From the NCBI RefSeq assembly GCF_006345805.1, contig NC_043001.1, positions 7,378,001 to 7,442,000 on the forward strand: DNA of 64,000 nucleotides, given 5' to 3'. Numbering within the stretch: position 1 is the first letter of the stretch; every line of letters begins with the position of its first letter. The position numbers and the translations under genes were made by a program. Below are positions 1,767 through 39,835 of the stretch, in pieces. A model generated the notes under the pieces. The model was not told the DNA's origin, made no database searches, and was given only the letters and a program-made list of their open reading frames with translations. The DNA comes from Octopus sinensis (taxonomy: Eukaryota).

Positions 1767-2462
1767 TTATTTAAGATTGATTAATAGGAATTTGGTCATG
1801 TGTTTACATGACTAAACTTTTCTATCGCTAGTACTAAGCAAATTTCCATACGTTCTTATGTTATAGTTTTCCTCCAAACACAACCTATAAATGTTATTAT
1901 TTCTGTAAGAGGGGGCAGAAGATAGGATTTTCCAAGAGATGGAGAAATCAGTATTATTTCTTTTGAGGTTCCAAATTCTTTTACATAGACTTGTACTATT
2001 CTCTTTTCTAGGGTGCCTAAAAGAAGATCTTTAATGATAACCCACGTATATGTATCTAGAGGAGTCCTGATGAATTATCGTTGCTTAGTATACAACTCCT
2101 TTCATTTTACAATTTCTATCTACTTCATAGGCATTTCGTTCTCTGCAATTACAATTTGAATTAGTTGGTGGTACTATCCTGTTATGTCTATACTTTTGGG
2201 GGATGGATAATGGAGTTATGGTTATTGTCAGTATTATATTTGTTAATTAAAGGATTATTTGATGTACTAGATACCGTTGGCGTAGTTTTCTTAATTATAC
2301 AATAGATCCAGTTTCTTATTGTCAAAGGAAGAGATTATCCTAAAGAAAGTTGGAGAAGCTGGAAATCCAAATCTATTTTTTTTAATTATTAAGTATTTTA
2401 GCATATTTACAATTTTGAAGTTTTTATTAATTATCATTCTAATGGATCTAAAAAAGTTAGAT

Positions 2463-4472: not shown

Positions 4473-4703
4473 GCGGCGAGCTGGCAGAAACGTTAGTACG
4501 CCGGGCGAAATGCTTAGCGGTATTTCGTCTGCCGCTACGTGCTGAGTTCAAATTCCGCCGAGGTCGACTTTGCCTTTCATCCTTTCGGGGTCGATTAAAT
4601 AAGTACCAGTTACGCACTGGGGTCGATATAATCGACTTAATCCGTTTGTCTGTCCTTCTTTGTCCTCTCTGTGTTTAGCCCGATGTGGGTAATAAAGAAA
4701 TAG
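4473..4703 (+). mobile_element. SINE family A (tRNA-like head plus MetaSINE-like core)
   Basis: GGCGAGCTGGCAGAAACGTTAG head, GAGTTCAAATTCC B-box, GTCGACTTTGCCTTTCATCCTTTCGGGGTCGAT core and ...GTGGGTAATAAAGAAATA tail. Near-perfect 14-bp TSD GAT(C/A)TCACGCAATT at 4458-4471 and 4703-4716. Confidence 0.9.
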
Positions 4704-5266
4704 ATATCACGCAATTTTGACTTTTAGCTGTTCGAGGCTGATAACGTAAGATACTATTCAAGAACAGACGCTGATATAATTGTTTTGCACCTTTCCCTCG
4801 AGATTTCCGGTCTTATGCCCAACGAAATATCAGCATCCGCTTCAGTGAGATTCCTATGATGATAGCCATAAAAGACAGGTGATTGGCATTATGAGTCTTT
4901 GGCCTTGACAAAATTCTATTTATAAATTGTAAAATTCTTTTAAACACAAAATGCCTTGCAAAAATAATATAAAATTACCTAAAGTCTGATAAAAGATTAT
5001 AAATGGATCATTACTAAAGTATACGAACAGTTTTTCATTTTGTGATTATGTTCGTAGAAATTACACGGACATTTCTAAAAATTGTATACCTGGATGTGAC
5101 TGAATAAGTGACCGAGATAATTAGATACACCATTTACTGGGGGACCGTTCTGTTTTAATATCTCATATTTCACACTGTGTGCTTAGTAGCAATAGAGTAT
5201 GTAGAAGTAGCTTATATACATGCCTAAAAATGTGTGTGCTTTTGTGAGCGTATACATATGTATGTT

Positions 5267-5306
<40 letters not shown>

Positions 5307-5372
5307 TACATATATCAATATCAGTATATATATATATGTATATATATATATATGTATATGATATATATACGT

Positions 5373-5414
<42 letters not shown>

Positions 5415-5419
5415 TATAA

Positions 5420-5879
5420 TAATAAATATTAGGGATTAAATCCAAATTTACAGGGAAAAATCAGATTTAGGACTGAATCCAATTTTATAGTAAAATATTA
5501 TATAATATTAATTAGAGACAAAACCATACAAATCAAACAAAGAAAGACTTAATCAAATACATAAAAAAATTTATATAAATTAAATAAAATTAAGTTATCC
5601 ACTACAATTGTTTCGTGTCTCTTCTAAGGACATTCATCAGGTGGTATTCAGATCTAAAAATAATCAATATTTTAAGATATAAATTTAAAATGACTAAAAA
5701 ATATAAATAATATAAATTTATCAATGAAAAAATATATATATAATCTATATATAATCTATATATAATCTATATATAATCAAGAACTAAAATAACCTCTATA
5801 AACAATTGAATATAATGAAACCTAGTATTGGATTAAGTCTTTCTTTGTTTGATTTGCATAATAGTGGTTTTGTCTCTAA

Positions 5880-5890
<11 letters not shown>
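5420..5890 (-). mobile_element. Short Penelope-type (pLTR-like) insert in (TA)n with inverted terminal segment and hammerhead
   Basis: 5500-5560 is the reverse complement of ~5825-5890. Contains the hammerhead at 5599-5644 and is flanked on both sides by (TA)n. Confidence 0.65.
5599..5644 (-). ncRNA. Minimal type I hammerhead ribozyme
   Basis: Reverse complement reads CCAC-CUGAUGA-AUGUC(cuuagaaga)GACAC-GAAA-CAAUUG-UA-GUGG. All core nucleotides and stems I and II are present; stem III is palindromic (ACAAUUGU) with a GUA cleavage triplet. Confidence 0.8.
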
Positions 5891-5918
<28 letters not shown>

Positions 5919-5940
5919 TATATATATAATATATATATAT

Positions 5941-6298
5941 TTATTATATAGAAGGAGCTTCTACAGGACTAGAACTGTTTCATTCAAGAGAAATCTTCAG
6001 GAAGCTAGTTAAAAGAATTGTATTGGCATTTATACATTTAGGCAGGTTTAAAGGGGTGGTGGTGGGGGACTTTTTGGGGGTAGGCATAGCGCAAAAAAAT
6101 CATACTTGGGGGAGTGGTCAAGGAGTCAGTGGTAAATTAGACAGAAGAATAATAAAGAATAAAAAAAGGAGAATAAAAAAATATATAGAGGAATAGAGTT
6201 TTAGGTAAATAAGGAAAATCTCACTTATACCTATACACAAATGTATACATATACACACACACACACATATATACATACTCACATACATACACACACAC

Positions 6299-6343
<45 letters not shown>

Positions 6344-6372
6344 TACATATACATACATATATCTACACAGAC

Positions 6373-6415
<43 letters not shown>

Positions 6416-6559
6416 CTATATATACATACACATATACATGCACATACATATACACACACACATGTATATATACACACACACACACGACCACACATACACA
6501 TATACACATATGCACACACAACACACAAGTCCCTATATACTCATATGTACTTATACACA

Positions 6560-6596
<37 letters not shown>

Positions 6597-6700
6597 TCTA
6601 GTCCTGTAGAAGCTCCTTCTATATAATAAATTAATTTTACTCTGCTATGTATTGAGTACCTTATTTACTGTGGTTAACCCCGAATCAACCCGGGACCTAC
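5941..6700. mobile_element. Second short Penelope-type insert with inverted partial copy, microsatellite-interrupted
   Basis: 5941-5974 is the reverse complement of 6596-6629 (TTCTAGTCCTGTAGAAGCTCCTTCTATATAATAA). Hammerhead at 5956-6006; (TA)n flanks. Confidence 0.6.
5956..6006 (-). ncRNA. Type I hammerhead ribozyme
   Basis: Reverse complement reads AGCUUC-CUGAAGA-UUUC(ucuu)GAAU-GAAA-CAG(uucuaguc)CUG-UA-GAAGCU: 6-bp stem I, intact core, stems II and III, GUA triplet. Confidence 0.85.
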
Positions 6701-20661: not shown

Positions 20662-21913
<1,252 letters not shown>

Positions 21914-36878: not shown

Positions 36879-37475
36879 TCCTTTCTTTCTACTCTAGGCA
36901 CAAGACTCGAAAAGTTTTGGGAAGGAGCCATCCGATTAGATCGACCCCAGTATCCAACTGGTACTTAATTTATTGACCCCGAAAGGATGAAAGGCGGGTT
37001 TTGAACTCAGAACGTAACGGCAGAAGAAATACCAATTTCTTTACTACCCACAAAGGGCTAAACACAGAGGATAAACAAGGACAGAGAAACGGATTAAGTC
37101 GATTACATCGACCCCAATGCGTAACTGGTACTTAATTTATCGACCCCGAAAGGATGAAAAGTAAAGTCGACGTCGGCGGAATTTGAACTCAGAACGTGAC
37201 GGCAGACGAAATACCGCTAAGCACTTCGCCCGTCGGCAAACGTTTCTTATTTCTTCAATGTCCACAAGGAGCTAAACACAGAGGGGTCAAACAACGAAAG
37301 ACAAAGGAATTAAGTCAATTACAACAACCCAGTGCGTAGCTAGTACTTAATTTATCGACCACGAAGGGATGAAAGGCAAAGTTGACCTCGGCCGAATTTG
37401 AACTAAGAATGTAACGGTAGACGAAATATCGCTAAGCATTTCGTCCGTCATGCTAACATTTATGCCAGCTCGCCC
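36879..37475 (-). mobile_element. Nested/tandem array of three SINE family A bodies
   Basis: Three GAA(A/G)GGATGAAA...GAACT(C/A)AGAA cores; TTTCAATCAAA TSD at 36861 and 37477. Confidence 0.85.
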
Positions 37476-39419: not shown

Positions 39420-39835
39420 TATTTCTTTACTGCCCACAAGAAGTTGAATATATAGGGGAAAAACAAGGACAGATAAAGGGATTAAGTCGATTACATCGAC
39501 CCCAGAGAGAAACTGGTGCTTTATTTAATCGACCCCGAAAGGATGAAAGGCAAAGTCGACATCGGCGGGTTTTCAACTCAGAACGTAACGACAGACGAAA
39601 TACCTATTTCTTTACTACCCACAAGGGGCTAAACACAGAGGAGACAAAGAAGGACAGACATAGGTATTATATCGATTATATCGACCCCAGTGCGTAACTG
39701 GTACTTAATTTATCGACCCCGAAAGGAAGAAAGGCAAAGTCGTCCTCGGTGGAATTTAAACTCAGAACATAGCGACAGACGAAATACCGCTAAGTATTTC
39801 GGCCGGCGCGCTAACGTTTCTGCCAGCTCGCCGCC
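39420..39835 (-). mobile_element. Two tandem SINE family A bodies
   Basis: Two cores joined at GACGAAATACC|TATTTCTTTACT, with diverged AAACAC..CAA.GTTAAT flanks. Confidence 0.85.

What the first reader, a model, noticed from the sequence alone, without database searches (positions are those of the whole stretch)
5420..6700. Two unrelated, intact hammerhead ribozymes in adjacent short non-coding inserts in (TA)n, each with an inverted partial copy
Seen: complete type I hammerheads at 5599-5644 and 5956-6006 (both minus strand), with different stem sequences. Each sits in a 0.5-0.8-kb protein-free module bounded by (TA)n and carrying an inverted duplicate of one end. Established: minimal hammerheads sit in Penelope pLTRs and retrozymes, and inverted pLTRs are a PLE hallmark. 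Inference: families of non-autonomous, ribozyme-bearing, microsatellite-targeting mini-retroelements, possibly yielding self-cleaved or circular RNAs.
Basis: partly seen in the sequence, partly recalled or inferred. Interest (0 to 1): 0.75.

Follow-up and report, generated by a model that had tools for sequence, protein, structure and literature searches.

The report
Truncated ends of two Penelope retrotransposons
The two ribozyme-bearing inserts are short, broken-off copies of two abundant protein-coding Penelope-type jumping genes, not new mini-elements; short sister copies elsewhere in the genome lack an intron precisely, so they were likely copied from spliced messenger RNA, which bears on how these elements copy themselves.

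Summary
Both hammerhead motifs are real, on the minus strand as stated (0.01 per shuffled window). Exact core motifs occur 2,183 and 5,978 times in the 2.7-Gb genome. [quoted passage not shown] Partial tandems (ribozyme, tail, ATG, ORF, long 3' region, ribozyme) were found for family 1, and both halves of that layout for family 2. The protein motifs and (TA)n targets match the Hydra clade of Penelope-like elements. The modules are ordinary 5'-truncated insertions with an inverted second copy; module 1's junction is unique in the genome. The 'non-autonomous retrozyme family' reading is therefore not supported. Side result: family 1 has a ~1.1-kb GT-AG intron ending 9 nt before the ribozyme. The precisely spliced junction has 161 exact genomic matches. 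Of 77 spliced arms, 76 stop within 34 nt of the donor and none enters the ORF. The scan has already reported such spliced copies on other DNA of this genome. Cleavage activity is untested.

The parts
5251..5419 (.). (TA)n-rich target tract flanking module 1
5420..5829 (-). Module 1 direct arm: 5'-truncated 3' end of Hydra-clade PLE family 1 (intron 3' part, hammerhead, short end, tail)
   Evidence: 93.8% over 410 nt to L042; also matches the upstream pLTR of ORF-bearing L106 and L114
5654..5829 (-). Retained 3' part of the family-1 5'-UTR intron; acceptor AG at 5655-5654, 9 nt before helix I, so this copy is unspliced
5599..5644 (-). Hammerhead HH1: helix I 4 bp, helix II 4 bp closed by A-C, palindromic helix III; predicted cut after 5603
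5420..5497 (-). Family-1 tail (~78 nt) between the two alternative 3' ends; in full copies it runs on into the 5' UTR and ATG
5825..5897 (+). Module 1 inverted arm: 73 nt up to the short end (no tail, no ribozyme); 5-nt overlap with the direct arm at 5825-5829
   Evidence: 98.6% to L042; junction unique in genome
5898..5938 (.). (TA)n tract shared by the two modules; likely the target into which one module inserted beside the other
   Evidence: order is inference from identities
5939..6596 (-). Module 2 direct arm: 5'-truncated 3' end of Hydra-clade PLE family 2 (microsatellite-rich 3' region, hammerhead, short end without tail)
   Evidence: collinear with L058, L079, L084; 5945-6235 is 97.6% identical to nearest copies
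5956..6006 (-). Hammerhead HH2: helix I 6 bp, helix II 3 bp closed by U-U, helix III 4 bp with 8-nt loop; predicted cut after 5962
6596..6700 (+). Module 2 inverted arm: 3' half of the hammerhead plus the ~80-nt tail; in full copies the tail runs on about 50 nt to the ATG
   Evidence: 99% to L079
6701..6725 (.). (TA)n target tract flanking module 2

Best explanation
The two modules are independent, heavily 5'-truncated insertions of two different protein-coding Penelope-like retroelements with the motifs of the Hydra clade, each with an inverted second copy of its 3' end, and both were likely placed in the same (TA)n tract by their own reverse transcriptase-endonuclease. Shown: the parent elements, their ribozyme-tail-ATG-ORF-ribozyme layout, two alternative 3' ends per family, ragged 5' ends and (TA)n flanks. 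Inferred mechanism: the GIY-YIG endonuclease nicks both strands of (TA)n. Each nick primes a cDNA at one of two internal start sites downstream of the hammerhead (short end, tail end). The two incomplete cDNAs are joined head to head through 1-5 nt of microhomology. The template was uncleaved at the hammerhead, because the copies read through the cut site. These two copies came from RNA covering the long 3' region (module 1 keeps part of the intron). The same priming on the 5' end of the spliced mRNA likely gives the family's many intron-free mini-copies. The hammerheads in this window are likely passengers: weak, and for HH1 probably dimer-dependent.
For: Family 2: of 12 loci picked for long open frames among 150 listed protein hits, 10 carry HH2 in sense 0.5-4.3 kb after the ORF; one contig ends early and one has none. 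8 of 12 carry an inverted 3' end upstream. L058 has the window's architecture with an ORF piece in between. 14 of 25 loci holding the RT N-terminus have sense ribozyme/end/tail motifs at fixed spacing upstream. Family 1: 8 of 20 loci picked from 40 hits of a 3'-region probe carry the ORF; L100, L106 and L114 read ribozyme-tail-ATG-ORF, and L100 and L114 show the second ribozyme downstream. Hydra motifs RW[KR]/KWK, DKT, CxCX5C, CxxC and CxH are in both proteins (against section 11 of PMC8557442). A TA run follows the 3' end in 30 of 30 and 30 of 30 matches taken in genome order. Neither arm of module 2 can be a copy of the other: one alone has the tail, the other alone has the upstream 600 nt. 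12 of 14 spliced inverted pairs have exactly one tailed arm by the script (counted from its table), as do 6 of 8 inverted ORF-bearing loci. A PLE protein cleaving and extending both strands from two internal start sites, with uncleaved RNA as main substrate, is reported in PMC11167929.
Against: No copy with a complete unbroken ORF was seen. The longest open frames are 652-675 aa in family 2 (5'-truncated) and 761 aa, or 77+748 aa, in family 1, so present-day autonomy is inferred from youth, not shown. Clade placement rests on motifs, not on a tree; Pfam and PDB searches named nothing. 2 of 14 spliced pairs (one with a partial tail by eye) and 2 of 8 ORF loci do not show the one-tail pattern. 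No target-site duplication can be read in (TA)n. The two-strand priming data come from a Poseidon-clade protein, not a Hydra one.
Confidence: 0.93

Rival explanations
1. The modules are members of non-autonomous, self-amplifying hammerhead mini-element (retrozyme-like) families that yield circular RNAs and borrow PLE enzymes.
For: Both are short, non-coding, in (TA)n and carry type I hammerheads. Most family copies are short. Retrozymes derived from PLEs are described (bioRxiv 10.64898/2026.07.22.740005), and the scan noted retrozyme-like families elsewhere in this genome (not checked here).
Against: No tandem same-strand units. The module-1 junction is unique in the genome and the module-2 junction was not found in other held loci. 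All parts map to coding elements. 5' ends vary from copy to copy. A few direct duplications exist (L108, L120, L198, L201) but not as a family.
Confidence: 0.04
2. Same parent elements, but the inverted arm arises by fold-back self-priming of one cDNA (or of an antisense template, as proposed for Penelope), not from two separately primed cDNAs.
For: Many short copies are near-perfect head-to-head palindromes. Junctions show microhomology. The model is in print (PMC3846280, passages).
Against: In module 2 each arm holds sequence that the other lacks. One tailed and one untailed arm is the rule. Precisely spliced copies need a sense, spliced template.
Confidence: 0.15
3. The two adjacent hammerheads act together as a functional unit at this locus (for example RNA processing of a host transcript).
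For: Both lie on the same strand 310 nt apart with complete cores.
Against: Their helix III sequences differ, so they cannot form the usual homodimer with each other (sequence; inference). Folding is weak. Adjacency follows from shared (TA)n targeting: family-1 and family-2 copies also co-occur in L054, L060, L111 and L159. No host exon was recognised nearby by a simple ORF scan.
Confidence: 0.03

Closest known systems
Hydra clade of C-terminal EN+ Penelope-like elements (Craig et al. 2021, PMC8557442; section 11, passages, Files S1, S2 and part of S7 seen), including Hydra-1_Obim of Octopus bimaculoides
   Same: RT then C-terminal GIY-YIG; RWK-type, DKT, CxCX5C, CxxC and CxH motifs; (TA)n insertion; type I hammerhead near the 3' end, often with U-U at the base of helix II; partial tandems, inverted 5'-truncated copy, tail at one end.
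   Different: Neither hammerhead equals that of Hydra-1_Obim in File S2 (compared by eye). Units here are about 5.5 kb with 3-4 kb microsatellite-rich 3' regions, against <3 kb described. Tails are ~80 nt, against 30-40. Family 1 has an Asn-rich insert of ~90 aa and a 1.1-kb intron ending just before the ribozyme.
Penelope of Drosophila virilis (PMC2377424 passages; PMC4209133 parts 1-2 of 4)
   Same: Promoter in the pLTR, short first exon (46 bp there, about 27-34 nt inferred here), 5'-UTR intron whose 3' end lies at hammerhead helix I.
   Different: Intron 75 bp there and ~1.1 kb here. Genomic Penelope copies are described as retaining the intron, whereas family 1 has many precisely spliced genomic mini-copies.
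PAc (Poseidon of Anolis carolinensis) in vitro (PMC11167929, parts 1-2 of 4)
   Same: Two internal reverse-transcription start sites that define the tail; AT-rich target; uncleaved RNA as template.
   Different: Different clade; there the start sites lie inside the ORF, here they lie in the 5' UTR upstream of the ATG.
Metazoan non-LTR retrozymes (PMC7229834 passages; bioRxiv 10.64898/2026.07.22.740005 part 1 of 5)
   Same: Short, non-coding, type I hammerhead.
   Different: Retrozymes are tandem ~170-400-nt units with one ribozyme per unit; these modules are single, head-to-head, uniquely truncated pieces of coding elements.

Membership tests
Hydra-clade PLE | Single ORF with RT followed by C-terminal GIY-YIG endonuclease | tested here: met
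   Translated parent copies L074, L106, L114; domains read from motifs, Pfam gave no name
Hydra-clade PLE | RWK motif and DKT in place of DKG | tested here: met
   Family 2 RWR and DKT; family 1 KWK and DKT
Hydra-clade PLE | CxCX5C linker; CxxC and C-terminal CxH; no CCHH inside the GIY-YIG core | tested here: met
   CxCX5C, CxxC and CxH read by eye in both proteins; absence of CCHH judged by eye, not by alignment to the published set
Hydra-clade PLE | Insertion into (TA)n | tested here: met
   TA run after the 3' end in 30 of 30 matches per family taken in genome order
Hydra-clade PLE | Type I hammerhead in the pLTR | tested here: met
Hydra-clade PLE | Partial tandem / inverted 5'-truncated copy / tail at one end | tested here: met
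Hydra-clade PLE | RT phylogeny groups with Hydra references | not tested
   Reference sequences were visible only in a paper's supplement and were not loaded into a tree
Hydra-clade PLE | Generally short (<3 kb; descriptive, not diagnostic) | tested here: not met
   Ribozyme to ribozyme 5.5 kb in L114 and 6.1 kb in L100; 3-4 kb 3' region in family 2
Neptune-clade PLE | CX2-5CxxC linker and CCHH motif in EN | tested here: not met
   Linker is CxCX5C; Neptune EN rows seen differ
Naiad | N-terminal EN, no canonical hammerhead | tested here: not met
   EN is C-terminal and hammerheads are present
Non-LTR retrozyme | Tandem short units each with a hammerhead | tested here: not met
Non-LTR retrozyme | No link to a coding element's body; fixed unit boundaries | tested here: not met
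   Ragged 5' ends continuing into ORFs
Non-LTR retrozyme | Abundant circular RNA | not testable with these tools
   Only contigs of runs guessed to be RNA were available
Active hammerhead ribozyme | Conserved core and three helices | tested here: met
   10.1-11.1 pair non-canonical in both
Active hammerhead ribozyme | Self-cleavage | not testable with these tools
   Folding predicts weak monomers; needs a bench assay

The most novel reading that the evidence does not exclude
These Hydra-clade families record their copying mechanism in thousands of genomic copies. Reverse transcription starts at two internal sites just downstream of the hammerhead on sense, uncleaved RNA, from both nicked strands of (TA)n, and the two cDNAs are joined head to head. 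On the spliced mRNA this yields abundant intron-free mini-copies that run off at the transcript's 5' end. Intron retention in long copies then follows simply from the intron also lying inside the 3' region of the same mRNA, where it is not spliced, with no antisense template needed. In family 2 the transcript would begin at the first base of the hammerhead.
Probability: 0.7. Interest if true: 0.62.

Novelty: new member of a known kind. Interest (0 to 1): 0.36.

Why it matters
As a locus it is ordinary: two truncated retroelement copies side by side because both families target (TA)n. It is a caution that lone hammerheads in short inserts need a search for a long parent before they are called retrozymes. 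The families matter more. How Penelope-like elements keep introns and make head-to-head inversions is stated as open in the papers read (PMC3846280, PMC8557442). Precisely spliced genomic copies whose junction follows the donor across subfamilies argue for a sense mRNA template. They also give two young families with mapped start sites for an in vitro test. The scan has noted this before on other copies in this genome.

Tried and rejected
Rfam scan at E<=1: 138 matches, all low-scoring miRNA/snoRNA-type hits on simple repeats or hairpins, no hammerhead. The repeat finder was swamped by microsatellites. Pfam gave no family above cut-off for the ORFs or four homologues, only a sub-threshold VtrA_C hit, rejected; PDB sequence search found nothing. 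I first read the proteins as Neptune-like and dropped this after comparing motifs. I first read the non-canonical 10.1-11.1 pairs as decay and dropped this: they are shared across copies and U-U is common in Hydra hammerheads. The short head-to-head family-1 pairs were tested as a MITE-like family with a fixed junction and rejected because junctions differ. L004 seemed to share module 1's junction but does not. An exon 1 for family 2 was sought and not found: no shared upstream sequence in the first 30 G-preceded matches and no conserved donor in long copies, so splicing in family 2 is neither shown nor excluded. A cap-derived G at spliced 5' ends is inconclusive (G in 5 of 15; often explained by the inverted arm). 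Sequencing runs: no RNA holder listed on record, only runs guessed to be RNA. On L106, the longest listed contigs of two such runs from two studies stop at the acceptor AG, and none of the three RNA-guessed runs covers the last intron bin, whereas the untyped run does. This is at most a weak hint, since spliced genomic copies could give the same, and no contig joins exon 1 to the ORF. The intron was not spanned by a read laying, so no direct RNA joint was seen. Literature searches for hammerheads in octopus and for intronless or spliced PLE genomic copies listed no such report. The library lacks most subscription papers, Arkhipova et al. 2003 was not read, and bioRxiv supplements were not seen.

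Full report
Observation. A hammerhead descriptor run on both strands of the 64-kb window returns two hits only: 5599-5644 (-) and 5956-6006 (-), with predicted cuts after 5603 and 5962. 300 locally shuffled windows gave a mean of 0.01 hits and never two. Rfam did not report them. HH1 has a 4-bp helix I, a 4-bp helix II closed by A-C, and a palindromic helix III. HH2 has a 6-bp helix I, a 3-bp helix II closed by U-U, and a 4-bp helix III. Neither is more stable than shuffles. The forced hammerhead folds are -2.0 and -7.3 kcal/mol, and with flanks HH2's 3' strand is predicted to sit in a competing hairpin. Module 1 is 5420-5897 and module 2 is 5939-6700, with (TA)n on both sides and between.

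Copy number. The genome is 2.72 Gb; its size and repeats suggest an octopus, which is my inference, and earlier notes say the same. Exact core motifs occur 2,183 times for family 1 and 5,978 times for family 2, against 2 and 0 for reversed controls. Inverted arms count twice, and the family-1 motif spans several subfamilies. Each family has two alternative 3' ends about 80 nt apart, followed by (TA)n; a TA run follows in 30 of 30 matches per family taken in genome order. Upstream, copies share sequence for different lengths.

Parent of module 2. Locus L033/L058 joins an inverted family-2 end to an ORF fragment, then 3.4 kb of microsatellite-rich sequence and a sense hammerhead. This is the window's architecture with a longer body. 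The fragment has at least 150 scored matches in the genome. I fetched 12 of these, chosen for long open frames: 10 have the sense hammerhead downstream, one contig ends, one has none, and 8 have an inverted end upstream. Of 25 loci with the RT N-terminus, 14 have sense ribozyme, end or tail motifs at fixed spacing upstream, and the tail runs about 50 nt into the ATG.

Parent of module 1. A probe from the 3' region gave 40 scored hits, of which I extended 20. Eight carry an ORF about 38% identical over the RT to the family-2 protein; a ninth hit (L111) is a family-2 ORF and was not counted. L100, L106 and L114 read hammerhead, short end, tail, ~75-nt UTR, ATG, ORF; L100 and L114 also show the downstream hammerhead, 6.1 and 5.5 kb after the first. 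All are broken by a stop or frameshift.

Clade. Both proteins have RT then a C-terminal GIY-YIG domain, an RWK-type motif, DKT, a CxCX5C linker, CxxC and CxH. These are the features that Craig et al. give for the Hydra clade (PMC8557442, section 11), with (TA)n insertion and hammerheads. Their File S2 shows U-U at the base of helix II in many Hydra hammerheads and lists an octopus family with a different motif. No tree was built. 801 homologues at about 40% identity exist in public data, almost all unnamed.

The window's copies. Each part maps onto the parents. The module-1 junction, with a 5-nt overlap, occurs once in the genome at up to one mismatch. The module-2 junction occurs only in the window's own loci among 331 held. 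So these are single truncation events, not an amplified unit. Module 2 is 97.6% identical to its nearest sampled copies and module 1 is 95.3%, so module 2 probably entered the (TA)n beside module 1 later; this is inference. In module 1 the direct arm has the tail and the inverted arm does not; in module 2 it is the reverse. In module 2 each arm has sequence the other lacks, so one cannot be a fold-back copy of the other.

Spliced sister copies. Short family-1 copies carry, directly before the hammerhead leader, a sequence that long copies hold 1.08-1.14 kb further upstream, followed there by GT; the skipped stretch ends in a pyrimidine tract and AG (seven long copies measured). The joined form has 161 exact matches and an unjoined form 52, controls 0; the unjoined pattern needs five T and undercounts. 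Among the first 30 family-1 motif matches, 13 were unspliced, 10 spliced and 7 too short or rearranged to class. In a second subfamily the junction moves by 4 nt together with the donor: long copies L205 and L141 have an upstream GT and L127 has not, and short copies of both junction types exist. That is expected of splicing and not of DNA deletion. I examined 77 distinct spliced arms in 70 loci covering part of the first 100 listed matches. 76 end within 34 nt of the donor, one at 72 nt, and none continues into the ORF. 12 of 14 inverted pairs have exactly one tailed arm. The window's module 1 is not of this class: it keeps the intron's 3' part.

Family 2 short copies. 40 of the first 100 motif matches form 20 head-to-head pairs at most 76 nt apart (counted), that is, ending at or inside helix I. 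706 matches have G before helix I and 2,313 have the genomic T; nearly all of the first 30 G-matches are such short copies. No shared first exon was found. The simplest reading is that the RNA begins at the hammerhead; a very short exon is not excluded.

Mechanism. Shown: parents, layout, two 3' ends, (TA)n flanks, splice-precise copies, read-through of the cleavage site. From the literature: a PLE protein nicks and extends both strands, starts at two internal sites that define the tail, and uses uncleaved RNA (PMC11167929, parts 1-2 of 4). Metazoan PLE hammerheads cleave poorly and mainly as dimers (PMC4209133, parts 1-2 of 4). The D. virilis intron lies 46 bp after the start (PMC2377424, passages) and ends at helix I. 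Inferred: two cDNAs, one per target strand, joined head to head; long and unspliced when primed at the RNA's 3' pLTR, short and spliced when primed at the mRNA's 5' end. An antisense self-priming model was proposed to explain intron retention and head-to-head palindromes (PMC3846280, passages); spliced copies do not fit it. Against my reading: no fully intact ORF was seen, a few pairs break the one-tail rule, and RNA evidence is only a weak hint.

Earlier notes and print. I noted the splicing, before the look-up. The scan's notes report spliced head-to-head leader copies of Hydra-type elements at other places in this genome, and retrozyme-like families that I did not check; nothing was noted near this window. 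Searches listed no paper on spliced genomic PLE copies; an Octopus vulgaris repeat annotation counts Penelope families without mention of ribozymes (PMC13282606, passages). For retrozymes I saw passages of PMC7229834 and part 1 of 5 of the bioRxiv preprint; its supplements were not seen.

Verdict. The motifs are real and the retrozyme reading is not supported. The locus is two ordinary truncated insertions of new members of a known clade. The interest lies in what the families' other copies say about PLE copying.

Noticed in passing
L115-L125, L207-L276 (family 1 short copies): Precisely spliced genomic mini-copies (about 170-280 nt) lacking a ~1.1-kb GT-AG intron; 161 exact junction matches; 5' ends cluster 8-34 nt above the donor.
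   Followed up: yes
L205, L141, L127 versus L131, L140, L145, L149, L153, L155: In subfamily 1b a one-base change creates a donor 4 nt upstream, and short copies show both junctions.
   Followed up: yes
L159-L171, L187-L201, L302-L331 (family 2): Hundreds of head-to-head mini-copies end at or inside hammerhead helix I, suggesting that the RNA starts at the ribozyme; a G often precedes it.
   Followed up: partly
window 5945-5966 (-): A conserved 8-bp hairpin overlapping the 3' strand of HH2 helix I is predicted to outcompete the ribozyme fold; it may keep the template uncleaved.
   Followed up: partly
L106, L114, L100 ORF: Family-1 protein is extremely AT-rich in coding and has an Asn-rich insert of about 90 aa after the RT thumb, like the N-rich inserts described in rotifer Penelope elements.
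   Followed up: no
L095-L100, L106: The family-1 3' region holds an internal ~620-660-bp direct duplication upstream of the inferred promoter.
   Followed up: no
window 1800-2171 (-): Degenerate endonuclease fragment of a third, distant Hydra-like element (31% identity, E 2e-10).
   Followed up: no
window 21240-21415: Long near-perfect inverted repeat (about 55-bp arms) that scores weakly against plant miRNA models; probably a MITE.
   Followed up: no
window 37048-37449 and 39420-39788: Two-copy tandem repeats of 215 and 185 bp of a very common dispersed repeat, also seen at 4500-4720.
   Followed up: no
L108, L120, L198, L201: A few loci hold direct duplications of hammerhead-bearing ends; possible seeds of retrozyme-like tandems.
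   Followed up: no
L075: A family-2 variant with only ~0.5 kb between ORF and hammerhead and a different acceptor-like sequence before helix I.
   Followed up: no
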